Positions 4,617 through 49,222 of a stretch of 64,000 nt of DNA are shown here, piece after piece. Position numbers and translations under genes: made by a program. The DNA lies in assembly GCA_000092065.1 (NCBI GenBank), contig CP000586.1; one strand, given 5' to 3'. Below the pieces are notes generated by a model, which saw only the letters and a list, made by a program, of their open reading frames with translations, was not told the DNA's origin and did no database searches. Numbering within the stretch: the first letter of the stretch is position 1; each line of letters opens with the position of its first letter. Source of the DNA: Ostreococcus lucimarinus. Taxonomy: Eukaryota.

Positions 4617-7331
4617 CTATTCTACTTCGATGTCCCCCAAACTTTCAGCGTACTTTTTCAACTCCTTCTCATTGATGACTTCGACGGACTCGACCCAACC
4701 AACGTACTGAAGAATACTGTAAGTCAACACCTTACCGGCATCTTGGATGATCGCCCAGATGATGACGTAAAGCCAACAATATCCGGACAGCTGCCAGGAA
4801 ATTCCTACCATGCCGTTTCCGAAAGGCCAGTACACCGCTAAAAGAGTCGACGCTCCAGTGGCGATGATGAAGGCGCCGACCAAGATGACACTTGGAGCGC
4901 GCGACCAGAACCAGCCCTTGGTTCTCGAGTTAAATACTGAGAAGTAATCAGAAAGACTGATTTTCAAGTAAATAAGCGTCTGGATCTCTCCGTATGACAT
5001 CGCTGGGAGACCAAGTTGAGACCAAGTGCTCGTTGGATCAACCGATGATAACGCTGAGCTCAGCAGAAGTACGGATGATGCCAAGGCTGTCAAGCCTATA
5101 GCGGAAGATACGATGTACAGGATATTCAAATCCCATTTTTCTGGTTGCATGGAAGCGTGCACGTTATCGTACGCCACAGAAATAATGGTTCCATCGTTCA
5201 ATATCGTAATCGTAACAAGTGCGATGACCGGAATAGCAAAGTGCTGCGGCCAAGACTCATTGAACTGACTAGGATGATAGAATATACACGAGATGAAGAA
5301 AAAGAACAACAACTGCTCTGTACACGCCACCCGATAAATCACAAAGTTTTTCATTCTTTGGAAGATTTTGCGGCTCGTGACAATCGCCGTAACGATGGTG
5401 GACAGACCGGGTTCGGTGAGAACAATATCAGCCGCAGCTTGCGCCGCGCTCGTAGCACCTTGTACAGCAATTCCGACATCCGCCCGCTTTAACGCAGGCG
5501 CATCATTCACACCGTCTCCAGTCATGCCGACGAGCATCCCTTGCTGTCGCAAAGCTTCTACAATCAGATATTTGTGCTCTGGGAATACTTGTGCGAATCC
5601 GTCCGCCTTTCGACACAGTTCACCATAATCTCGTCCTAGCGTGGTCGCCTTCTCTAGTTCCTCCGCTTTCATGAGAGGAAGTTTTTCAGTGCCAAGCACG
5701 TTTGTGCCCATACCCAACGTTCTGCAAGTTTCAACCGCAATGGCGCGGTGATCACCGGTGATCATTTTCACACTGACACCAAATTCGTTGGCGCAGTCAA
5801 TGGTATGCTTTGTGTCCGGGCGAGGAGGATCCAAAAAGGTCAAAATACCCAAAAATTCGAACTCGTTGCTATTGTTCTTTGTTTTCGCCACCGCGAGCGA
5901 ACGAATACCGCGATGAGCTAACTCGAGAACGTGCTTCTCGACCTCTTGACCGATCGTGGACTTGTTTGCACTCAACTCTAAAACCACGTGCGGGGCACCT
6001 TTCGTCACCTTGAACACGTTACCGTTCTTCTCCTTGATCGTGCTTTCTGTGCGCTTGATGGCTGGATCAAACGGAGTGTGATCGGTCTGTTCGTAATCGT
6101 TCAATGCGCTGATGTTAACAGCGTTTAATACCAAAGTATCGAGGGCGTCCTTTGGCGGCTCCCACCATTTCGCCGCCAACGCCGCGAGTTTGAGGACTTC
6201 TTCACGCGAAACACCCGGAACAAAGATTGGTAAATCCTTCTGAAGAACCATCTTGTTCAGAGTGAGCGTTCCTGTCTTGTCTGAGCACAAGATTGTCATA
6301 CCCGCCAACTCTTCAACAGAAGAAAGCCGCGCTACGATGGCCTTCTCCGCCGCAAGTTCATGACAACCTAAAGCCAACGTCGTCGTACAAACCACTCGCA
6401 AAGCGATAGGAATAGATGCAACAAGAAGGACTACGTTGAACGCTAAGACCTCCCAGAAATCAACCCCGATAGAAAGTAAATAAATGAACACCAGAGTACA
6501 GATGAAGAAACCGACAGCGACCAAGATGTATGTAATCTCTCTGAGTACTTTTTCAAAGTGCCCGAGCTCATCGACTCCTTGAACTAAGTCCGCGGTTTTC
6601 CCAAAGAACGTCTGGCTACCCGTCGCTGTGACGGTAGCTTCGATTTCTCCGCGCGTCACGGTGGAACCCATTTTTGCTTCCGCACCTGGAAACATTGCGA
6701 CCGGCAACGATTCCCCCGTGAGCGCGGATTGATCCACTTGAATAGGTTTTCCATCTCTAATCGTGCAATCCGCCGGGATCGCACCCCCCGCGCCGAGGAC
6801 GACGATGTCCCCGGGTACTAACTTTGTGGCGTTGATGATGTACACGCGTCCTTCGCGTTTCACCGTCGCCTCCGGTTTCAGCGACTCTCTCAACGCCGCG
6901 ATGGCGTCACCGGCCTTCATTTCCTCTATAAACCCCACGAGCACGTTCAACAATTGCAGCACCACCAACACGATGACGTCCACGAGACCATCCATGGACT
7001 GATGAATGTACGTCTCGATGGATTCGATGAGGATGGCTGCCCAGATCATCATCGGCATCGGTTGTACGAACTCCAACGCGAGTTTCAACCACATGCTATC
7101 CTCCTTCACCTTGAGCTGATTAGGTCCGAATAACTCCAACCTACGCGCCGCCTCGTCCTCGTTCAAACCGCTCTCGCCGGTGTTGAGCAAACTCTCGCGC
7201 TCGACGCCCATGTAGAAGCGCGCGTCGTCCGTCGTCTCCGTCCCATACGCCGCGCTGTCCTCCTTTCCTCGCCCGAGAAGCGGTGTCGAGCGAAGATCAG
7301 CGTCTTCATCTTCGCCTCCGCCGCGCGACAT
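4617..7331 (-). CDS. Plasma-membrane-type P-type H+-ATPase (P3A ATPase)
   Basis: The ORF carries the phosphorylation motif CSDKTGTLTLNKM and the hinge motif GDGVNDAPALKRADVGIAV. The N-terminal ..EDEAARRLELFGPNQLKVKEDSMW matches PMA/AHA proton pumps, and about 10 TM segments are present. The ORF track opens at a TTG at 7433; the first ATG (MSRGGGEDED) is at 7331. Confidence 0.9.
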   Translation of the reverse strand: MSRGGGEDEDADLRSTPLLGRGKEDSAAYGTETTDDARFYMGVERESLLNTGESGLNEDEAARRLELFGPNQLKVKEDSMWLKLALEFVQPMPMMIWAAILIESIETYIHQSMDGLVDVIVLVVLQLLNVLVGFIEEMKAGDAIAALRESLKPEATVKREGRVYIINATKLVPGDIVVLGAGGAIPADCTIRDGKPIQVDQSALTGESLPVAMFPGAEAKMGSTVTRGEIEATVTATGSQTFFGKTADLVQGVDELGHFEKVLREITYILVAVGFFICTLVFIYLLSIGVDFWEVLAFNVVLLVASIPIALRVVCTTTLALGCHELAAEKAIVARLSSVEELAGMTILCSDKTGTLTLNKMVLQKDLPIFVPGVSREEVLKLAALAAKWWEPPKDALDTLVLNAVNISALNDYEQTDHTPFDPAIKRTESTIKEKNGNVFKVTKGAPHVVLELSANKSTIGQEVEKHVLELAHRGIRSLAVAKTKNNSNEFEFLGILTFLDPPRPDTKHTIDCANEFGVSVKMITGDHRAIAVETCRTLGMGTNVLGTEKLPLMKAEELEKATTLGRDYGELCRKADGFAQVFPEHKYLIVEALRQQGMLVGMTGDGVNDAPALKRADVGIAVQGATSAAQAAADIVLTEPGLSTIVTAIVTSRKIFQRMKNFVIYRVACTEQLLFFFFISCIFYHPSQFNESWPQHFAIPVIALVTITILNDGTIISVAYDNVHASMQPEKWDLNILYIVSSAIGLTALASSVLLLSSALSSVDPTSTWSQLGLPAMSYGEIQTLIYLKISLSDYFSVFNSRTKGWFWSRAPSVILVGAFIIATGASTLLAVYWPFGNGMVGISWQLSGYCWLYVIIWAIIQDAGKVLTYSILQYVGWVESVEVINEKELKKYAESLGDIEVE

Positions 7332-12522: not shown

Positions 12523-14004
12523 CTAAACGAGAAGAGGAGAGTCTAAGACGGCGTACCCCGCCGCGACGCCGCCTTCGTCGGAAGTCGCCGCCTTCGTCCG
12601 GAGCAAACTCCCACCGTGTTTATTGATCACGATCTCGTCGCCTACGCGGAGATAACTACCGTAAATACCTAACTCGGACAGTGTTTCGATTTCGAGCACC
12701 TTACCGGCGCGAACGGTGAGCGTTTGATGAGATGGAGGGAGAATGCGTTGCATGAGAATGAACGCGCCCAAGTCTCCGCCGAGTTCAAGTCGTTTGCGCA
12801 AATCGTCCGAATACAAATTATTTCCACCACCCTCACGCTGAGGCTTTAAGACGTAGCCCGCTGGATTCGCGAGTGCGAGTTTAATCGCCTCGGTGCCTTC
12901 GTCGCCGTCTAAGGAATACAAATCTGCAAAGACACGTCGCATGTCCGCGGCGCGTTCCGGCATGAACGATTCGAGCACGCCCGCTTCTGCGAGCTTTTGT
13001 TGCACCTTCTTCGATCCCGCCAAGTGCATTGCCACCGAAGGGCTCTTCAAAGCGTTCGATTGTTCGATTAACAACCGTGCTGACCATTCGCCACTGGTCG
13101 GATAGTCCGACGGGGTGTATCCGGCTCGAAAGTACACCAAGCCGATGTCGTCGCCTCGAAACGTGAGCGTTCCGTCGCGCAACGCGCCCTCGGCGTTTAC
13201 TTCGGCTAAAGTCGCTCTGACGGTGTGAATTCCGTGCGTTTCGAATATATAATGCGAGATGTGCCGCTGATCGAACATATTACGCTCGTTCGGCTGAACC
13301 ACCATCATGATTTTCCCTTTACTCCCCATCGCTTTCCATCCCGCCGCGAGGACGTCGCCCGCGCTCGAGAGCGCGTCGTTCTGTGGCATCGCGTCGAAAT
13401 CCACCACTTCTCCAGGTTTCGCCGACCACGCCGCTAAGTGTCTATGCATCGCGCTCACCTTCGATCCGAGCGCCATGAACGACGTGCTCACCGTGTTCAC
13501 CTCGACTTGCAAAGGCAACCCGCTCGGCGCGTCGAGCATGTAATCGCTTCGCAACACGCCAACCTCCGCCTTCTGTCTCCCCTCTTGCCCGCCGCTCCGT
13601 TCGTACACGTCCCACAGCGCGGCCGTGAATGCATCGTTCTTAATCGCCCCCCGCAGCGTTTCCCTCAGGAATCCATCGTCCCTCGACACTCCGTCGTACA
13701 GCTCCGCGAACGCCGGCGACGTCGCCTCGGCGAGCTCGTACGCGCTCCTCGGAAACGTCGTCGGCGCGCACGACACCGGCGCGTGCGTGAACGTCCCCGC
13801 TTCGTCTCCTCCGATCATCAATCCGTGTTCGACGCAGTACGCCACCGCTTCCACCGCGCGCGCGCTCGTCGCGCCCTCGCGCACGAGCCCGCGGTTTCCC
13901 GCCCCGGTCGTCGTCGCCGTCGCTCGCGTCGTCGTCGTCCCGCGTCGTCGTCCCATCGTCGCGCGCGTCGTCGCTCGCGTCGTCGTCGCGCGCGTCGTCG
14001 CCAT
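12523..14004 (-). CDS. GSS: Eukaryotic-type glutathione synthetase
   Basis: Diagnostic segments are ..VLKPQREGGGNNLYSDDLRKRL.. and the N-terminal substrate-binding region AVAYCVEHGLMIGG..FTHAPVSCAPTTFPRSAYE. The length is about 490 aa. Confidence 0.85.
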   Translation of the reverse strand: MATTRATTTRATTRATMGRRRGTTTTRATATTTGAGNRGLVREGATSARAVEAVAYCVEHGLMIGGDEAGTFTHAPVSCAPTTFPRSAYELAEATSPAFAELYDGVSRDDGFLRETLRGAIKNDAFTAALWDVYERSGGQEGRQKAEVGVLRSDYMLDAPSGLPLQVEVNTVSTSFMALGSKVSAMHRHLAAWSAKPGEVVDFDAMPQNDALSSAGDVLAAGWKAMGSKGKIMMVVQPNERNMFDQRHISHYIFETHGIHTVRATLAEVNAEGALRDGTLTFRGDDIGLVYFRAGYTPSDYPTSGEWSARLLIEQSNALKSPSVAMHLAGSKKVQQKLAEAGVLESFMPERAADMRRVFADLYSLDGDEGTEAIKLALANPAGYVLKPQREGGGNNLYSDDLRKRLELGGDLGAFILMQRILPPSHQTLTVRAGKVLEIETLSELGIYGSYLRVGDEIVINKHGGSLLRTKAATSDEGGVAAGYAVLDSPLLV

Positions 14005-14137: not shown

Positions 14138-14193
14138 ATCTTGGGTCCGCCCTCAGTGGTCGTCCATCTTGGGTCCGCCCTCAGTGGTCGTCC
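14138..14193. repeat. 28-bp tandem duplication in GSS/CPAP divergent promoter
   Basis: atcttgggtccgccctcagtggtcgtcc occurs twice back-to-back. It is flanked on both sides by gccggttcgg (14104-14113 and 14194-14203). Confidence 0.85.
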
Positions 14194-14245: not shown

Positions 14246-15871
14246 ATGAGCCTGGACGACGTCCCGATCAACGGCGATCGAACGAGGACGTGGGAGGAGA
14301 TCATCGCGAGCGCGCTGGAGGGGGACGGCGGGACGACGACGACGACGACGACGACGCGCGACGACGACGATGCGGATTGTTTAAAGTCAACGCCGACGAG
14401 GAGTTACTTGAAAAAGGGGACGCGAGCGATGCGGACGTCGCCGTTGACGCCGAAAACGGCGGGAACGACGCCGAATGTGACGAACGCGCGATCGAAGGTG
14501 GGGCGCGCGCGAGGGATGAGCCCGAGGGGGGGGGGGGAAAGAGGAACGGGGACGACGACGGCGGAACGACGAAGAGGAACGACGACGACGACGAGTCCGA
14601 GTCCGAAAATCGCGTTCGGGAGGCGCGAAGAGTCGCGCTCACCGCGACGAGCAGGTGGTGGGTTGTTTGACCACGACGTGAACGTTCAACCGTCGACGAT
14701 GGAGGCGTGGAGAGAACATAAAGCGAGGAGCGCGAGGGAGACGAAGGAATTCGAGGCGCTCGAGTCGCGGTTGTGGAGCGAGACGAAGGCAAAGGAAGAG
14801 GCCGAGAGGCGATCGTTCGATGACGTGAGATCGGGTACGGTCGTTCGTGACTTTGTCTCTTCGTCGACTGCGGAGGAAGAGGAAGCGCGCGCTGCCTTTG
14901 AGCGCGCCAAGGCGAGTCTGGCGAGCGAAAGACAACGATTCGCCGACGAACGGGCGGCGTGGGAAGCGAAAAGAGACGACGCCGAGGAAGCGTTCAAGGC
15001 TGAGTGTGAGGACGTGCGCAGACAGTTCAAGCGCGAAAAGGCGGCGTTGATGCGCGAGGCGGAGGCACACTTAGCACTACCCACGAAACAGGAGCGCAAT
15101 GAAGCCAAGTTTCTTCGCGAACAGCTCGAGCGCAACGAGGCTGAATTCAAAGCCGAGCAACAACGAGCCAAGCTCACGGTGGATCGCCTGCGGCAACAAA
15201 TCGTCGATCTGACGAACGAAATTTCGGAACTTCGCATGGAGAAAAGGTTGCTGGAAGAGAAGTGCGAGGTATCGAATCGTTTGCAAGCGAAGGCTTTGTC
15301 GACGACGCCGCCTCGTCGAGTCGAGCCGGTCGTCGAGATCGCTTCGCCCGCGAGTTCGCGGCCTGGGATGACGATTTCGTCGGAACCGAGTCCATCTAGG
15401 CGTGTATATGCGGATGATACGACGTACTTTGCACCTCGTGCGCTCAGTGTGCGCGATCCGCTCCCGAGCGTGAGCGATAAAGTTCGATTACGAAGCACCG
15501 CGGGTCTCGAACGCGAGATTCCGCACGAGGATGGTCGGGTCGAGCGCGTCTTTGCTGACGGTCGTCGCGTCGTATTTTTCGCAAACGGCACGATTAAGGA
15601 AATCGATGGTCATGAAACGACTATTTTCTTCACCAACGGTGATATCAAACGCACTCACCAAAACGGTATCATCGAGTATTACTACTTCGACGTCGAGACG
15701 TGGCACACCACGCACCCAACCGGCGTTGAGCTCTACCATTTCGTTCAAACCAATCAAGTCGAACTTCACGCCGCGGGCGACGAGCCCAAGGATAAGGAAA
15801 TCTTATTTCCAGACGGAACCCTTCGTCGCGTTTACTCGAACGGCTTCGAGGAAGACGTGGCCGGATTGTAA
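14246..15871 (+). CDS. CPAP/SAS-4 (CENPJ)-like centriolar protein: coiled coil plus C-terminal TCP10_C/G-box domain
   Basis: The C-terminus FADGRRVVFFANGTIKEIDGHETTIFFTNGDIKRTHQNGIIEYYYFDVETWHTTHPTGVELYHFVQTNQVELHAAGDEPKDKEILFPDGTLRRVYSNGFEE matches G-box repeats of CPAP. A long coiled coil lies upstream. Confidence 0.8.
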   Translation: MSLDDVPINGDRTRTWEEIIASALEGDGGTTTTTTTTRDDDDADCLKSTPTRSYLKKGTRAMRTSPLTPKTAGTTPNVTNARSKVGRARGMSPRGGGERGTGTTTAERRRGTTTTTSPSPKIAFGRREESRSPRRAGGGLFDHDVNVQPSTMEAWREHKARSARETKEFEALESRLWSETKAKEEAERRSFDDVRSGTVVRDFVSSSTAEEEEARAAFERAKASLASERQRFADERAAWEAKRDDAEEAFKAECEDVRRQFKREKAALMREAEAHLALPTKQERNEAKFLREQLERNEAEFKAEQQRAKLTVDRLRQQIVDLTNEISELRMEKRLLEEKCEVSNRLQAKALSTTPPRRVEPVVEIASPASSRPGMTISSEPSPSRRVYADDTTYFAPRALSVRDPLPSVSDKVRLRSTAGLEREIPHEDGRVERVFADGRRVVFFANGTIKEIDGHETTIFFTNGDIKRTHQNGIIEYYYFDVETWHTTHPTGVELYHFVQTNQVELHAAGDEPKDKEILFPDGTLRRVYSNGFEEDVAGL

Positions 15872-36947: not shown

Positions 36948-37394
36948 ATGCGGGGCGCGCGCGATGAAGACGACGATGCGCGCGCGATGGCGGCGCCGGT
37001 GACGCGCGACGACGCGATGCGCGTGCTGGGACTGGACGAGCGCGACGCGAGGAATCCGAGCTTGGTGAAGCGAACCGTGCGCGAGCGCGCGTTGGATGCG
37101 CATCCCGATCGCGCCACGGGGTCGCGCGAGCGATTCAGCGCAGTGATGGCGTCGAGAGATATACTTTTGAGCGACCTACGGGGCGGAGGGACGAATCGAG
37201 GGTTCACGATGGCGGAGAGCGCGGCGCGGCGAGCGACGGATAACGCGCTGCCAAAGCACTTCAAGTCGTTCATCGTCGCGACGGCGTTGGTTTTAGTCGG
37301 TGTGTCGTGCGTCAGGACGAACGCGGGCGAGAGGCGTAAAGCGAGAAGTCCACTGGTGAGAGACGCCATGGGTTTACCGCCTAGCGATGCGTGA
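36948..37394 (+). CDS. Small J-domain (DnaJ-like) protein with C-terminal TM segment
   Basis: J-domain core AMRVLGLDERDARNPSLVKRTVRERALDAHPDRATGSRERFSAVMASRDILL, including the HPD tripeptide. It is followed by the hydrophobic segment FIVATALVLVGVSCV. The start is ambiguous (36948 or 36993). Confidence 0.6.
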   Translation: MRGARDEDDDARAMAAPVTRDDAMRVLGLDERDARNPSLVKRTVRERALDAHPDRATGSRERFSAVMASRDILLSDLRGGGTNRGFTMAESAARRATDNALPKHFKSFIVATALVLVGVSCVRTNAGERRKARSPLVRDAMGLPPSDA

Positions 37395-37451
37395 GTAGTA
37401 TACTAGCGATGCGTGTAGTGTATAGCAGTTGTATAAAAGTGCTCGTCTCAA

Positions 37452-45266: not shown

Positions 45267-47261
45267 TCAAGCGCGCTGGCCGCGATCGAGGGCGTTTTGC
45301 CTCGATGCGAGCGTGGCGGAGAGCTGCGAAAGCCGAGCGTGCGTGCTGCCGTCAATGACCAGCGGCGGAGTGATGTGCAAGCCTGGGCCTTCGCCTATGA
45401 GGAACTGTAGAAGCGTTTGCGCGCGACCGTAAGTGTCCGACGCAGTCTGCTTGTTCTCCGCCAATTCCTCCCGAACGCCTTCTTTTGCGAGCTTGCAGAT
45501 TTGTTGGTACACCAACTCCATGCCGTCGGGAAGCGCCGAATTCATATCGAAGCCAGCGGCGTTGCAAGCCGCCGCTGCCTTTTCGGCGCGCGTATGGGCG
45601 GCTTGAAACGCTTCTCCGATTCTCACTGTCGCGCGCTTAGCACTGACGGCCATCGAGCTTCCTGCTGTGGGGGAACTATCTGCGGACGAAGTGCTCGCGC
45701 TCGTCCCACTGAGCGCGATGGATGATGACTTTTGCTCGGTCGTGAGGATTTCAGACGCGAATCTGTGCGCCGTGCGCAGCGCTGCGAGAGAAATCAAGCC
45801 CAAGGATAGCGCCTCGAGCTTGCTTCCCGCGTTCCAATGTTCCATCGAACTGTCGCGCAGCACCGCGGCGGCTTTCTCTAAAACGCCCACGCGCACTCCG
45901 AGTTGCGCGACGAGTATTTGAGACTGCGTTTGCGCGCGCGCGGCGAGCGTCATCGGTTGACTCGAAGGCGATGTCCCTCGCGACATGCGCGCGCGACCTC
46001 CGAACGTGGCACCCGCCCCATCCCTTGGACTGAGTGACATGCGCGACAACGGCGACGAACCGAGTGACGGCGAGCGCATCGCCGTAGACTTTGGCCCACT
46101 CGCTCCTGGCGACGATACCAAGACGTAGTCGCCACCGATATTCATCTTATCCCCATTTTCTTGCACTTTTGTAGACGTCGGCACCGGACGACTGATCGGT
46201 CGTTGCGCTTGTTCCGCGAGACGTATCGACGTCGGCGACGGGCTCGCGCTCTCGACATCCATATCAAACGGCATCGTTTCGCTATCGTCGCTACAGCCGC
46301 TCCGAGAAATCCTTCCCTGCGAATTCTGAGCGCCTGGTTTCGTCGGAATGCCGACTCCAACGTCGGCCGCTTTCAAGAACGGATGATTGAAAAACTCTTC
46401 AAAAGAGATGCGATTCGCGGCGTCGCGGTGAAGCAAGCCGCGAAGTAAGTCGATGCACTCAGCCGACAACCCTTGGGCGATGTGGATGGGAATCTTGAAC
46501 TCGGTCTTTTGAATGTTGCGCAGGAGCTGCACTTGATTTTGCCCCGTGAACGGCACGGTACCGACGAGCATCTCAAACAATATCGCCCCCACGCTCCACA
46601 AATCCGCCTTGGCGTCGTATCGCTGATAATTCAAAACTTCGGGCGCCATGTACAGCGGACTCCCGCACACGGTGTCCGCCATCCCTTCGCTGTCGCGAAT
46701 GTATCTCGCGAACCCAAAATCAGCGATTTTCAACTCGGCGTTCAAATCGTTCGAAGTCAACAGCAAATTTTGCGGTTTCAAATCTCGATGCACGATCTGC
46801 GCCTTGCGCATCGCCTTGAGCCCCCTCGCGAGCTGAAGCATGAAACGTCTCGCCGCGATTTCTTCCATCCTTCCGTGCCTCTTGATGAACTGACTCAGAT
46901 CCCCCCCCCCACAATATTCCAACACGATGTACACCGTCTCGTTCGAGCTCTGCATATCGATAAACCGGAGAATATTTTCGTCTCGCATCCTTCGCATCAC
47001 CTCCACCTCGAGTTTCAAACTCTCCCTCAACTTTTTACTCAACCGCTCGCACGCGATCTCCTTCACCGCCACCACCGCCCCCGTCTTCACGCACGTCGCT
47101 CGCCACACCGTCGCGAACGACCCTCGACCGAGCGTCGCGTCGTCCAGCGCCCACCTCTCGCCCACCGTTCGCCGTCGTCCGCTCGCCCCGCGCGCGCGCG
47201 TCGTCCACCCCTCTCGCGACGCGTCCGCCACCCCGCGCGTCCCATCCGTCGTCCGCGTCAT
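45267..47261 (-). CDS. ATG1: ATG1/ULK-family serine/threonine protein kinase
   Basis: Kinase subdomains: GRGSFATVWRA, VAVKEI, HRDLKPQNLLL, ADFGFAR, GSPLYMAPEV, DLWSVGAIL. This is the ULK-type N-terminal kinase. The C-terminal region is helical, MIT/EAT-like. ATG at 47261. The six-frame ORF continues to 47714 across a 72-bp tandem repeat; that extension is uncertain. Confidence 0.8.
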   Translation of the reverse strand: MTRTTDGTRGVADASREGWTTRARGASGRRRTVGERWALDDATLGRGSFATVWRATCVKTGAVVAVKEIACERLSKKLRESLKLEVEVMRRMRDENILRFIDMQSSNETVYIVLEYCGGGDLSQFIKRHGRMEEIAARRFMLQLARGLKAMRKAQIVHRDLKPQNLLLTSNDLNAELKIADFGFARYIRDSEGMADTVCGSPLYMAPEVLNYQRYDAKADLWSVGAILFEMLVGTVPFTGQNQVQLLRNIQKTEFKIPIHIAQGLSAECIDLLRGLLHRDAANRISFEEFFNHPFLKAADVGVGIPTKPGAQNSQGRISRSGCSDDSETMPFDMDVESASPSPTSIRLAEQAQRPISRPVPTSTKVQENGDKMNIGGDYVLVSSPGASGPKSTAMRSPSLGSSPLSRMSLSPRDGAGATFGGRARMSRGTSPSSQPMTLAARAQTQSQILVAQLGVRVGVLEKAAAVLRDSSMEHWNAGSKLEALSLGLISLAALRTAHRFASEILTTEQKSSSIALSGTSASTSSADSSPTAGSSMAVSAKRATVRIGEAFQAAHTRAEKAAAACNAAGFDMNSALPDGMELVYQQICKLAKEGVREELAENKQTASDTYGRAQTLLQFLIGEGPGLHITPPLVIDGSTHARLSQLSATLASRQNALDRGQRA

Positions 47262-47530
47262 CCCGCTCGAGTCACTCTTTCGTTTTCCTTCGCGTCCCGG
47301 GACTTCCCGCGCTTCGTCGACGCGTTCGAATCTCGTCGACGCGCGACGTTCGCGTTCGAACGGCACCGTCCTCGCGTCGTCGTCTTCGGGTGGTTCTTCG
47401 ACGCGTCGCTCGCGTCCGTCGCTCGCGTCGTTCGGCGCGTCGATCGACGTCGTCGCGCGCTCGGCTCCCGGCGCCGCGCCTCGGCGTCGCCGCGCGACGC
47501 CCTCTCGCGTCGCCGCGCGCGGGCGCGAGG

Positions 47531-47674
47531 CGTCGCGTCGTTCGGACCCTCTCTTGGCGACAACCCTCGCGTGGCGAAGACCGCGTCGACGCGCGGGTGT
47601 CTCGTCGCGTCGTTCGGACCCTCTCTTGGCGACGACCCTCGCGTGGCGAAGACCGCGTCGACGCGCGGGTGTCT
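47531..47674. repeat. 72-bp tandem duplication, 2 copies with 1 mismatch
   Basis: Unit cgtcgcgtcgttcggaccctctcttggcga(c/g)a/gaccctcgcgtggcgaagaccgcgtcgacgcgcgggtgtct occurs at 47531-47602 and 47603-47674. On the minus strand it would encode the 24-aa repeat ETPARRRGLRHARVVAKRGSERRD twice. Confidence 0.85.
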
Positions 47675-47749
47675 CGCGCGCGCCGCGACGACGGCCGCGA
47701 CGCGCGCGCCGCACCGCGCGACGGCGGCGCGATCGCGATCGCGATCGAG

Positions 47750-47822
47750 ATGGCGGCGCGGTGCGCCTCGACCGCGCGCGCGGCGACGATTCGCCGTGGA
47801 CGCGGGCGCGCGACGCGCGCGA

Positions 47823-47858
<36 letters not shown>

Positions 47859-49222
47859 GGACGACGACGGGACGACGGCGCGCGGCGCGCGGAGGCGCGG
47901 GAGACGCGCGAGGGCGCGCGAAAGTGACGCCGGGAAGCGATGGCGCGACGCGGGCGCGCGACGCGGGCGCGGCGCGCGGCGACGGTGGGGGCGGGACGAC
48001 GGCGCGAAGGACGACGACGCGACGACGCGAGGACGCGAACGCGGGGGGGAGGGAGGGAGGGACGCGCGCGAACGGTCGCGCGCTCGCGACGCTCGGAATG
48101 GCGAGCGCGATGGGGATCGATTTTGAGGGACCGGGGAGCGTGATAACGGCGATCGGGGTGCTGGCGGTGATCATCACGGCGCACGAGTGCGGGCACTTTT
48201 TCGCGGCGCGAGCGCGGGGGATACACGTGAACGCGTTCGCGGTGGGGTTCGGGCCGAATCTTTTCACGTATCGCGGACCGGAGGTGGAGTATAGCTTGAA
48301 AGCGATCCCGCTCGGGGGATACGTGGCGTTTCCGGACGATGATGAGGATTGTCCGTACCCGGAGGACGATCCGGATTTGTTGCGCAACAGGCCGACGAGC
48401 GATCGCGCGTTGGTCGTCTCCGCGGGCATCATCGCCAACGTGCTTTTTGCGTTCGGGATTTTGTACAACCAAGTCACCACGGTTGGATTCGCGGAGCAAA
48501 AATTTGAACCCGGAGTCGTCGTCAAGGCGTTTACGAGTTCGTCGGTCGCGCGAGACGCGGGCATCGAGGCGGGCGATATCATTTTATCCGTCGACGGCGA
48601 AAAACTGGCGGCGAGCGGGAAATCGGTGGGTAAAGTCGTGAACGCGGTGAAAAACTCGCCGAACGATGTCTTGAAATTCGAGCTCATGCGAATCGGCGCG
48701 GACGGGGCGCCCGAGGTGAAGATTGTCGAGTTGCGCCCGAGCGCGACGCCGACTGGCGACGGTAAAGTCGGCGTCAAGCTCGAATCCAACTCGAGCGTAT
48801 CCAAACATATCGCGAGCAATCCGATCGAGGCCGCTTCGTTGGCCGGTAATGAATTCGCTCGGTTGACGGCTTTGGTGTGGAAAAGCCTCTCTGGTTTGTT
48901 CCTGCACTTTGACGACAACAAGTCGCAGGTGAGCGGGCCCATCGCCATCGTGGCCACGGGGGCAGAGGTGATGCGAAGCGATGTCAGTGGGCTGTATCAG
49001 TTCGCAGCAGTCATCAACATTAACCTCGCCATCGTCAACTTGCTTCCTTTACCAGCGCTCGACGGTGGATTTCTACTACTCATCGCCATCGAAGCCGCGC
49101 GGGGCGGGAAGAAGATTCCGCTCGAAATTGAGCAAAGCATCACAGGCGCGGGCGTGCTGTTCCTGTTGATTTCGGGCGCGTCGTTGATACTTCGAGACAC
49201 GATAAATTTGATTCCTCATTAG
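47750..49222 (+). CDS. RseP/S2P-type M50 site-2 protease with PDZ domain, plastid-type presequence
   Basis: HExxH zinc motif AVIITAHECGHFFAARARG, a PDZ domain (..GIEAGDIILSVDGEKL..) and the LDGG motif NLLPLPALDGGFLLLIAIEA are present. The catalytic core starts near 48098 (MASAMGIDFEG). The Thr/Arg/Ala-rich leader from ATG 47750 is plausible as a transit peptide but is not certain. Confidence 0.75.

What the first reader, a model, noticed from the sequence alone, without database searches (positions are those of the whole stretch)
47531..47674. Near-perfect 72-bp tandem duplication between the ATG1/ULK kinase and the site-2 protease
Two 72-bp copies differ at one base. The duplication sits where the six-frame ORFs of both flanking genes overlap on opposite strands (ATG1 minus extension to 47714, S2P plus extension from 47390). 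If translated on the minus strand it adds an in-frame 2x24-aa Arg-rich repeat (ETPARRRGLRHARVVAKRGSERRD) to the kinase N-terminus. If not, it is a recently duplicated element of a shared promoter or 5-prime-UTR region. Near-identity implies a recent event or a copy-number-variable minisatellite.
Basis: seen in the sequence. Interest (0 to 1): 0.5.

Follow-up and report, generated by a model that had tools for sequence, protein, structure and literature searches.

The report
Polymorphic promoter tandem duplication in Ostreococcus
The 72-bp tandem duplication is real but non-coding: it is one of at least five overlapping tandem-duplication variants found in wild populations of a tiny marine green alga (Ostreococcus), at a small mutation hotspot between two back-to-back genes, and its kind and mechanism are ordinary.

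Summary
Window 47531-47602 and 47603-47674 are head-to-tail 72-bp copies that differ only at 47562 (A) versus 47634 (G). The window is from an Ostreococcus-like green alga. The repeat lies in the 488-bp spacer between the ATG of the ATG1/ULK kinase (47261, minus strand) and the first ATG of the M50/PDZ site-2 protease (47750, plus strand).

It is not coding. No in-frame ATG lies upstream of either gene. Orthologues start at the downstream ATG. Wild alleles carry 26-, 29- and 53-bp duplications at this site that would shift the reading frame.

It is not an assembly artefact. An independent Tara Oceans scaffold has the same 72-bp duplication with the same junction. Three other contigs of the same species have one copy.

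Fourteen haplotypes give nine distinct sequences. They fall into a single-copy class and duplication classes of 9, 26, 29, 53 and 72 bp, all within about 90 bp, with 1-5 bp of junction microhomology. This is the most variable spot in 8 kb. A 16-nt motif, GACCCTCNNNTGGCGA, occurs 1-4 times depending on the allele.

Best reading: a recurrent microhomology-mediated slippage hotspot, in effect a small variable-copy repeat in a bidirectional promoter or 5' UTR. A regulatory effect is possible but was not tested.

The parts
47531..47602 (.). 72-bp tandem copy 1, on the kinase side. It carries a private A at 47562.
   Evidence: It is absent from the single-copy alleles L001, L002 and L006.
47603..47674 (.). 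72-bp tandem copy 2, on the protease side. The junction with copy 1 reads GTCT|CGTCG, and the junction microhomology is 2 bp (CG).
   Evidence: Tara scaffold L009 has the same junction.
47545..47577 (+). Two adjacent instances of the 16-nt motif GACCCTCNNNTGGCGA in copy 1, at 47545-47560 and 47562-47577. The second has one mismatch.
   Evidence: TRF also reports a period-17 sub-repeat.
47617..47649 (+). Two adjacent instances of the same motif in copy 2, at 47617-47632 and 47634-47649.
   Evidence: The motif count per allele is 2 in the single-copy allele, 3 in the 26/29-bp duplication alleles, 4 in the 53/72-bp duplication alleles, and 1 (inverted) in sister lineage L003.
47582..47593 (.). 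12-bp perfect palindrome CGCGTCGACGCG inside copy 1. The right-hand ends of the 26-, 29- and 53-bp duplications seen in other alleles fall inside it or within a few bases of it.
47654..47665 (.). The same 12-bp palindrome inside copy 2.
47262..47749 (.). 488-bp divergent spacer (74% G+C) between the two start codons. It is a shared promoter and/or the 5' UTRs, has no ATG on either strand, and is the most polymorphic segment of the 8 kb compared.
45267..47261 (-). ATG1/ULK-type Ser/Thr kinase coding sequence (664 aa), starting at the ATG at 47261.
   Evidence: Pfam: Pkinase 1.2e-69 and MIT_ATG1 4.6e-07. It is 80% identical to the O. tauri kinase family protein.
47750..49222 (+). Site-2 protease coding sequence (Peptidase_M50 plus PDZ), 490 aa from the first ATG. 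An alternative ATG lies at 47822.
   Evidence: Pfam. The sequence around the 47750 ATG is conserved in sister lineage L003. Both start variants exist as called proteins in the public collection.

Best explanation
The 72-bp repeat is a non-coding tandem duplication that is polymorphic in natural populations. It lies in the spacer between the divergently transcribed ATG1/ULK kinase and site-2 protease genes of an Ostreococcus species. It is one allele of a local hotspot: a segment of about 90 bp that has duplicated repeatedly, each time with different end points. The hotspot segment already consists of two degenerate 17-bp motif copies plus a 12-bp palindrome, flanked by CG-rich low-complexity DNA. 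The most likely mechanism is inferred, not shown. During replication the nascent strand re-anneals out of register at very short direct repeats (1-5 bp), which is replication slippage or microhomology-mediated tandem duplication. Once two copies exist, unequal exchange or gene conversion could act on them. The consequence is a change in the copy number (2, 3 or 4) and spacing of a 16-nt motif in the shared upstream region. This is most likely neutral or weakly regulatory. What is shown: the duplication is real, it is not translated, it varies among wild haplotypes, and the site is exceptionally prone to duplication. What is inferred: the slippage mechanism and the lack of a strong functional effect.
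For: Single-copy alleles differ from the window by a clean 72-bp gap, with almost identical flanks. The same 72-bp duplication and junction occur in an independent Tara assembly, L009. Fourteen complete haplotypes give 9 distinct sequences. They fall into a single-copy class and duplication classes of +9, +26, +29, +53 and +72 bp, all mapping to window-equivalent 47603-47674. Junction microhomologies are 2, 3, 5 (or 1), 1-2 and 2 bp. Across about 8 kb aligned for 9 haplotypes, the only other indels of 6 bp or more are an (ACG)n microsatellite and one 54-bp in-frame duplication in the kinase. Nucleotide diversity is 0.020 in the 250-bp bin holding the repeat, against 0.0024 overall. If duplications fell uniformly in the spacer, three of them would share a segment with P = 0.034, and the 9-bp one would also fall inside with P = 0.006. 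The unit is specific to this locus. The 241-million-record metagenome scan returned only five stretches, and each one carries this locus's flanking sequence. A viral-contig scan with a second sub-string of the unit returned nothing. Sister lineage L003 has its own 24-bp tandem duplication at the homologous position. O. tauri has a 41-bp x 3.5 array in the same spacer. Published work shows that microhomology-mediated tandem duplications cluster locally on a scale of about 100 nt and depend on G+C content and microhomology length (PMC8639346). A preprint reports that they are the dominant route to tandem duplications (bioRxiv 10.64898/2026.02.28.708716).
Against: Microhomology at the 72-bp junction is only 2 bp (CG), which is trivial in DNA that is 74% G+C, so it does not by itself point to a microhomology-dependent mechanism. 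Single-strand DNA folding of the region is no more stable than shuffled sequence (z = -0.05 and +0.28), so a hairpin-driven mechanism has no support beyond the 12-bp palindrome. The two 72-bp alleles (window and L009) sit on different flanking haplotypes. Within each allele both copies share the same state at the 47598/47670 C/T polymorphism. I cannot tell whether this means two origins or one old origin followed by recombination or gene conversion. Neutrality is assumed, not tested. About two-thirds of the sampled haplotypes (9 of 14) carry an extra copy of the same 26-29-bp core through different events, and selection could also produce that pattern. All haplotypes other than the window come from metagenome assemblies. 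These can collapse or mis-join repeats, and one contig, L012, is a fold-back chimera at exactly this site.
Confidence: 0.78

Rival explanations
1. Adaptive change in regulatory-site dosage. Independent duplications of different lengths were each retained because they add copies of a transcription-factor site, the GACCCTCNNNTGGCGA motif or the 26-29-bp core. This would change expression of the ATG1 kinase and/or the site-2 protease, in the way TR34/TR46 duplications raise cyp51A expression in Aspergillus fumigatus.
For: The 26/29-, 53- and 72-bp duplications are nested and all double the same core. The motif count rises from 2 to 3 to 4. The motif is the only part of the unit still recognisable in the otherwise poorly alignable spacer of sister lineage L003, where it is inverted, as an orientation-independent site could be. 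Alleles with a doubled core make up 9 of the 14 sampled haplotypes. A known precedent is described in PMC9239056.
Against: There are no expression data and no known factor for the motif. The motif occurs nowhere else in the 64-kb window apart from one weak 1-mismatch hit at 4849, and it is absent from the O. tauri and lucimarinus-like orthologous spacers. The 9-bp duplication and the L003 24-bp duplication do not include the motif. A mutational hotspot alone predicts nested events. The haplotype sample is small and not random.
Confidence: 0.13
2. The repeat is translated as an Arg-rich 2 x 24-aa N-terminal extension of the ATG1 kinase, or as part of the protease leader.
For: Long ORFs on both strands run through the repeat, and 72 is a multiple of 3.
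Against: There is no ATG on either strand in 47262-47749. All six frames are open here because of the high G+C content. Orthologues start at the ATG corresponding to 47261. Frameshifting 26-, 29- and 53-bp alleles are common in nature. The 151-aa 'extension' has no Pfam match.
Confidence: 0.02
3. Assembly artefact: a single copy was wrongly doubled in this assembly.
For: Short-read assemblers can mis-handle repeats. Several metagenome contigs end at or in this segment, and one (L012) is a fold-back chimera there.
Against: The two copies differ by one base. An independent Tara scaffold has the same 72-bp period and junction, with two differences between its copies. Other sizes of duplication at the same site recur across independent samples. 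The 29-bp allele is identical in five contigs, four of which carry four different ENA sample accessions.
Confidence: 0.04
4. The unit is a fragment or terminal repeat of a mobile element, a viral insertion, or a structured RNA gene.
For: None was found. This reading was considered because tandem repeats sometimes mark such elements.
Against: Sub-strings of the unit occur nowhere else in the window. Exact-match scans of the metagenome and viral collections returned only this locus or nothing. There is no Rfam match with E < 0.29 in 46900-48300, and the single weak hit lies in the (ACG)n tract, not in the repeat. Folding gives z about 0.
Confidence: 0.01

Closest known systems
Microhomology-mediated tandem duplications (MTDs), described in Schizosaccharomyces pombe (PMC8639346) and reported across microbes in a preprint (bioRxiv 10.64898/2026.02.28.708716)
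   Same: A segment that is single-copy in other alleles is duplicated head to tail. Sizes of tens of bp match (55, 68 and 92 bp at ssp1). Several different duplications cluster within about 100 nt. The sequence is G+C-rich. The alleles segregate in natural isolates.
   Different: The 72-bp junction has only 2 bp of microhomology. The S. pombe survey considered pairs of 4-25 nt, and only the 29-bp allele (5 bp) reaches that. New occurrence, reversion and dependence on Rad27/Okazaki-fragment processing are untested here. The S. pombe cases were mostly in genes, whereas this one is in a promoter or 5' UTR.
Promoter tandem repeats TR34, TR46, TR53 and TR120 of Aspergillus fumigatus cyp51A (PMC9239056, PMC6390761)
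   Same: A series of nested tandem duplications of different lengths lies upstream of a gene. They share a common core and coexist in natural populations.
   Different: There, the duplicated SrbA and AtrR sites, the higher transcription and the selecting agent (azoles) have been demonstrated. Here no binding factor, expression effect or selective agent is known, so the resemblance is structural only.
Multi-allelic promoter indel markers in the related alga Bathycoccus prasinos (PMC11539686)
   Same: Intergenic or promoter length polymorphisms with 2-3 or more alleles segregate in wild Mamiellales populations and can be detected in environmental DNA.
   Different: Those indels are 200-2000 bp and were not described as nested tandem duplications. 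The variants here are 9-72 bp and are resolved to the base.
Classical minisatellites / variable-number tandem repeats (VNTRs)
   Same: The unit length is 10-100 bp and the copy number differs among individuals.
   Different: The array has at most two full units. Alleles differ mainly in which sub-segment is duplicated, not in the number of copies of one fixed unit.

Membership tests
Microhomology-mediated tandem duplication (MTD) | Head-to-tail duplication of a segment that is single-copy in the ancestral or alternative allele | tested here: met
   L001, L002 and L006 have one copy with near-identical flanks, and the window has a clean 72-bp insertion.
Microhomology-mediated tandem duplication (MTD) | Identical short sequence at both ends of the duplicated segment. 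One definition needs 1 bp or more (bioRxiv 10.64898/2026.02.28.708716). The S. pombe genome survey used 4-25 nt (PMC8639346). | tested here: inconclusive
   The 72-bp allele has 2 bp (CG), the 9-bp allele 2 bp, the 26-bp allele 3 bp, the 29-bp allele 5 bp (CGACG), and the 53-bp allele 1-2 bp. This meets the 1-bp definition. Only the 29-bp allele meets the 4-nt definition. Two bases of CG are expected by chance in this composition.
Microhomology-mediated tandem duplication (MTD) | Local clustering of independent events on a scale of about 100 nt | tested here: met
   Five length classes fall within window-equivalent 47603-47674. Uniform-placement simulation gives P = 0.034 and 0.006.
Microhomology-mediated tandem duplication (MTD) | Arises anew during replication and reverts at high rate | not testable with these tools
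   This needs ultra-deep sequencing of clonal cultures or mutation-accumulation lines.
Minisatellite / VNTR | Tandem unit of about 10-100 bp whose copy number varies among individuals | tested here: met
   There are 1 versus 2 copies of the 72-bp unit, and the 16-nt motif occurs 1-4 times.
Minisatellite / VNTR | Multi-copy array (several to many units) that changes by gain or loss of whole units | tested here: not met
   The maximum is 2.1 copies. Alleles differ in the end points of the duplication, not in unit count.
Coding tandem repeat in the ATG1 kinase N-terminus | Lies downstream of an in-frame AUG in the mature mRNA | tested here: not met
   The first in-frame ATG is at 47261, and there is no ATG on either strand in 47262-47749. 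A spliced upstream exon cannot be excluded without RNA data.
Coding tandem repeat in the ATG1 kinase N-terminus | Reading frame preserved among natural alleles and conserved in orthologues | tested here: not met
   The 26-, 29- and 53-bp duplications shift the frame. O. tauri and P0037 start at the downstream ATG. The unit is not conserved in L003, L017 or L018.
Enhancer-type promoter tandem repeat (cyp51A TR34/TR46 type) | Tandem duplication located upstream of the coding sequence, with nested alleles sharing a core | tested here: met
Enhancer-type promoter tandem repeat (cyp51A TR34/TR46 type) | The duplicated segment contains transcription-factor binding sites | tested here: inconclusive
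   A 16-nt motif is retained, inverted, in sister lineage L003. It is absent from more distant orthologous spacers and from other promoters in the window. No factor is known.
Enhancer-type promoter tandem repeat (cyp51A TR34/TR46 type) | The duplication raises transcription and is under selection | not testable with these tools
   This needs reporter assays, allele-specific expression data and population-frequency data.
Dispersed repeat / mobile element | Copies at multiple unrelated loci | tested here: not met

The most novel reading that the evidence does not exclude
The hotspot could be a selected 'expression dial'. On this reading, wild Ostreococcus populations have repeatedly and independently raised the copy number of a lineage-specific 16-nt cis-element (1, then 2, 3 and 4 copies) in the shared promoter of the autophagy-initiating kinase ATG1 and a chloroplast-type site-2 protease. 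Several alleles would be kept at intermediate frequency, which would be parallel regulatory evolution by tandem duplication, like cyp51A TR34/TR46 but in marine picophytoplankton.
Probability: 0.12. Interest if true: 0.6.

Novelty: new member of a known kind. Interest (0 to 1): 0.33.

Why it matters
Taken alone, the 72-bp duplication is an ordinary young tandem duplication in non-coding DNA. What adds modest value is its context. The same 90 bp has duplicated at least five different ways within a species whose haplotypes otherwise differ by only about 0.2-0.4% over 8 kb. A sister lineage and O. tauri carry their own repeats at the same spacer.

This gives three practical uses. First, it is a ready-made multi-allelic marker, scorable by PCR or read-mapping, for tracking Ostreococcus genotypes in metagenomes, as was done with promoter indels in Bathycoccus. 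Second, it is a natural test site for rates of microhomology-mediated duplication in a G+C-rich green alga. Third, it is a candidate for testing whether promoter duplications tune ATG1 or S2P expression.

It also shows that bacterial-style gene calls on eukaryotic metagenome contigs produce spurious N-terminal extensions. Those extensions happen to record non-coding variation and can be mined for it.

Tried and rejected
1. Coding reading. Rejected: see the rival explanations (no upstream ATG, frameshifting natural alleles, orthologue start positions).

2. Hairpin or cruciform as the driver. DNA folding of the duplicated segment (200 nt) and of the single-copy segment (115 nt) is no better than dinucleotide shuffles, with z = -0.05 and +0.28. 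Only the 12-bp palindrome remains as a weak lead.

3. Avoidance of upstream ATGs as evidence that the whole spacer is 5' UTR. There are zero ATG or CAT triplets in 488 bp, but dinucleotide-preserving shuffles expect only 0.89, and P(0) = 0.38, so this is not informative.

4. Structured RNA. An Rfam E-value search of 46900-48300 found only a spurious mir-598 hit (E = 0.29) in the (ACG)n tract.

5. Dispersed or viral origin. No copies were found elsewhere.

6. Unequal exchange between the two 12-bp palindrome copies present on L002-type haplotypes as the origin of the 72-bp duplication. Rejected because the observed junction (GTCT|CGTCG) is not the one such an exchange would create.

7. L012's odd N-terminus (MAKTASWPS) as a real inversion allele. 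It is a fold-back at the very start of a 5.6-kb contig, where bases 2-144 and 152-330 are inverted copies of overlapping sequence. I treat it as an assembly chimera.

8. Known plant promoter motifs (TCP site II, E2F, CGCG box), recalled from memory. Only partial resemblances were seen, at the level expected by chance in this composition, so I did not pursue them.

9. Species assignment beyond 'Ostreococcus sp.' was not achieved. The kinase is 80% identical to the O. tauri protein and 75% identical to a widespread unnamed group of proteins that I took to be O. lucimarinus-like. The window's exact kinase sequence is not in the public protein collection.

Full report
**1. Observation**

Window 47531-47602 and 47603-47674 are two head-to-tail 72-bp copies. 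They differ at one position, 47562 A versus 47634 G. Tandem Repeats Finder gives period 72, 2.1 copies, 97% matches and score 286. This is the top-scoring tandem repeat in the 64-kb window; the next best scores 121. Two sub-strings of the unit were searched with up to 3 mismatches. They occur only at these two places, against 0 expected from shuffles.

**2. Where it sits**

- The minus-strand gene is an ATG1/ULK-type kinase (Pkinase 1.2e-69, MIT_ATG1 4.6e-07).
- The plus-strand gene is a site-2 protease (Peptidase_M50 3e-53, plus PDZ domains).
- The best named relative of the kinase is O. tauri, at 80% identity. A widespread unnamed group of proteins, which I took to be O. lucimarinus-like, is 75% identical. 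The window therefore comes from another Ostreococcus-like Mamiellophyceae species. I could not name the species.
- The first in-frame ATG of the kinase ORF is at 47261. The first ATGs of the protease ORF are at 47750 and 47822.
- The repeat lies inside a 488-bp spacer (74% G+C) between two divergent genes. It ends 76 bp before the protease ATG and starts 270 bp upstream of the kinase ATG.
- The 815-aa and 610-aa ORFs exist only through bacterial-style GTG starts, and because stop codons are rare in this composition. Six ORFs in different frames overlap the site.

**3. It is not coding**

- There is no ATG on either strand in 47262-47749.
- The O. tauri protein and a 96%-identical sister-lineage protein (P0037) both begin where the 47261 ATG is.
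- The 151-aa 'extension' has no Pfam match.
- Wild alleles carry duplications of 26, 29 and 53 bp in the same segment. These would frameshift either ORF.

**4. It is real and polymorphic**

Bacterial-style gene calls on metagenome contigs read through the spacer. Their spurious N-termini therefore record the spacer sequence. Using those proteins I retrieved contigs of the same species. One exact-match metagenome scan for a 21-mer of the unit added more.

Between fixed anchors, 14 complete haplotypes give 9 distinct sequences and six length classes:

| Length between anchors | Change | Haplotypes |
|---|---|---|
| 115 bp | single copy | L001, L002, L006 |
| 124 bp | +9 bp, CGGGTGTCT doubled | L011 |
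| 141 bp | +26 bp | L020 |
| 144 bp | +29 bp | L008, L013-L016, L021; L005 partial |
| 169 bp | +53 bp duplication, plus 1 bp from a substitution cluster | L010; also implied by proteins P0153 and P0157 |
| 187 bp | +72 bp | the window and Tara scaffold L009 |

The alignment of the window with L001 and L002 shows a clean 72-bp gap with almost identical flanks. L009 has the same period and the same junction, GTCT|CGTCG. This makes an assembly artefact unlikely.

The window and L009 differ in flanking haplotype. The left flank reads GCGCGCGGGCGCGAGG in the window and GCGCGTCGACGCGAGG in L009. Within each allele both copies share the same state of a C/T polymorphism: GGGTGTCT in the window and GGGCGTCT in L009. 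So the 72-bp duplication either arose twice or is old and has since recombined or undergone gene conversion. I cannot decide between these.

The loci retrieved for three contigs (L004, L005 and L007) stop inside or beside the unit. One contig, L012, starts there with a fold-back chimera. This is what one expects where several alleles co-occur in a sample.

**5. It is a hotspot**

- In an alignment of about 8 kb for 9 haplotypes, the only other indels of 6 bp or more are the (ACG)n tract encoding the protease poly-Thr stretch and one 54-bp in-frame duplication in the kinase.
- Nucleotide diversity is 0.0024 overall but 0.020 in the 250-bp bin with the repeat, and about 0.01 in the two neighbouring bins.
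- More than half of the 64 segregating sites lie in 47277-47859, and many are changes at adjacent bases.
- All five duplications map to window-equivalent 47603-47674. The 26/29-bp segment is nested in the 53-bp segment, which is nested in the 72-bp segment.
- If duplications fell uniformly in the spacer, three would share a segment with P = 0.034. With the 9-bp duplication also inside, P = 0.006.
- Sister lineage L003 has an otherwise poorly alignable spacer. It carries its own 24-bp tandem duplication (TTCCGGGTGTYTTCGCGCCGCGAY, twice), which overlaps the protease-side end of the unit.
- O. tauri has a 41-bp x 3.5 array in the same spacer.

**6. Anatomy of the unit**

- The unit contains two adjacent copies of the motif GACCCTCNNNTGGCGA. 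TRF reports this as a period-17 sub-repeat, so an older duplication of about 17 bp is likely.
- It also contains a 12-bp perfect palindrome, CGCGTCGACGCG.
- The motif count is 2 in the single-copy allele, 3 in the 26/29-bp alleles and 4 in the 53/72-bp alleles. It is 1 in L003, in inverted orientation. It is 0 in the O. tauri and lucimarinus-like spacers and effectively 0 elsewhere in the window.
- The right-hand ends of the 26-, 29- and 53-bp duplications fall inside the palindrome or within a few bases of it.

**7. Mechanism**

Junction microhomologies are short: 2 bp for the 72-bp allele, 2 bp for 9 bp, 3 bp for 26 bp, 5 bp (CGACG) for 29 bp, and 1-2 bp for 53 bp. This fits replication slippage or microhomology-mediated tandem duplication. 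That process is reported to depend on G+C content and microhomology length and to cluster on a scale of about 100 nt (PMC8639346). A preprint reports that it dominates the formation of tandem duplications in microbes (bioRxiv 10.64898/2026.02.28.708716).

The inference is weak for the 72-bp allele, because a 2-bp CG match is trivial in this sequence. Single-strand DNA folding gives no support for an unusual structure (z about 0).

One nearby observation points to template switching. A cluster of three substitutions at 47520, 47521 and 47523 on L002-type haplotypes creates a second exact copy of the 12-bp palindrome 66 bp from the first.

**8. Function**

Nothing here shows an effect on expression. 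The neutral reading is favoured for three reasons. The unit is not conserved beyond the closest lineage. The motif is not a general promoter element. A mutational hotspot alone predicts nested events.

The selective reading cannot be excluded. Three different events double the same core, and 9 of the 14 haplotypes carry such a doubling. The motif is also the only recognisable remnant in L003. The structural precedent is the cyp51A TR34/TR46 series (PMC9239056).

**9. Comparison with known systems, and verdict**

This is a new example of a known kind: a young tandem duplication that is polymorphic in populations, at a slippage hotspot in a bidirectional promoter or 5' UTR. Promoter indel polymorphisms are already used as strain markers in the related alga Bathycoccus (PMC11539686). 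High intergenic diversity and an excess of multi-nucleotide polymorphisms are documented for O. tauri (PMC5498103).

Its non-coding and copy-number-variable alternative is supported, and its coding alternative is rejected. Interest is modest (0.33). The locus is a good marker and a good test site for microhomology-mediated duplication, but it is not a surprise.

Noticed in passing
window 45992-46045 (minus strand, kinase coding sequence): Several wild haplotypes (L002, L009 and L011, plus proteins P0145, P0147, P0155 and P0156) carry a perfect 54-bp in-frame tandem duplication of this segment. It doubles the 18-aa stretch SLSPRDGAGATFGGRARM in the low-complexity linker of ATG1. The window has one copy.
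   Followed up: partly
window 47820-47877: An (ACG)n microsatellite encodes the poly-Thr tract near the protease N-terminus. Its length varies among haplotypes in steps of 6 bp.
   Followed up: partly
window 47482-47505: CGGCGTCGCCGCGCGACGCCCTCT is one of the few patches of the spacer conserved in sister lineage L003. It contains the inverted repeat GGCGTCGC..GCGACGCC and lies just on the kinase side of the repeat. It is a candidate for a genuine cis-element.
   Followed up: no
window 47520-47523 versus L002, L009 and L011: A three-base substitution cluster (GCGCGCGGGCGCG to GCGCGTCGACGCG) creates a second exact copy of the 12-bp palindrome CGCGTCGACGCG, 66 bp from the one inside the unit. This looks like a templated (template-switch or conversion) mutation rather than three independent changes.
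   Followed up: partly
L003 5683-5698, compared with window 47545-47560: The GACCCTCNNNTGGCGAC motif is present once in the sister lineage but in the opposite orientation relative to the flanking genes. This implies a small inversion of about 20-25 bp between the lineages.
   Followed up: partly
window 14138-14193: A perfect 28-bp x 2 tandem duplication (ATCTTGGGTCCGCCCTCAGTGGTCGTCC) lies in another divergent spacer, between ORFs 12523-14004 (minus strand) and 14246-15871 (plus strand). A 22-bp x 2 duplication lies at 37381-37424. Young tandem duplications may be common in the spacers of this genome.
   Followed up: no
L017 3001-3487 (O. tauri KZ155774.1): The annotated O. tauri kinase gene range begins 486 bp upstream of where the main coding exon aligns. 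This implies a tiny first exon (MGDRKCP...) and a 5' intron of about 480 bp that contains a 41-bp x 3.5 A+T-richer tandem array. The gene model may be doubtful, or it may hint at a 5' intron in this gene family.
   Followed up: partly
L012 1-330 (ERZ27286415 k119_688801): The contig starts with an inverted fold-back of the spacer. Bases 2-144 match window 47446-47588 on the plus strand, and bases 152-330 match 47494-47316 on the minus strand. This is probably an assembly chimera formed at the repeat.
   Followed up: yes
P0151 and P0154 (787 aa), equivalent to window ~47675-47690: These haplotypes carry a 12-bp deletion in the CG-rich right flank of the unit (RRARRGRRRGARETP becomes RRARRGPRETP in the spurious ORF). 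This is one more length variant next to the hotspot.
   Followed up: no
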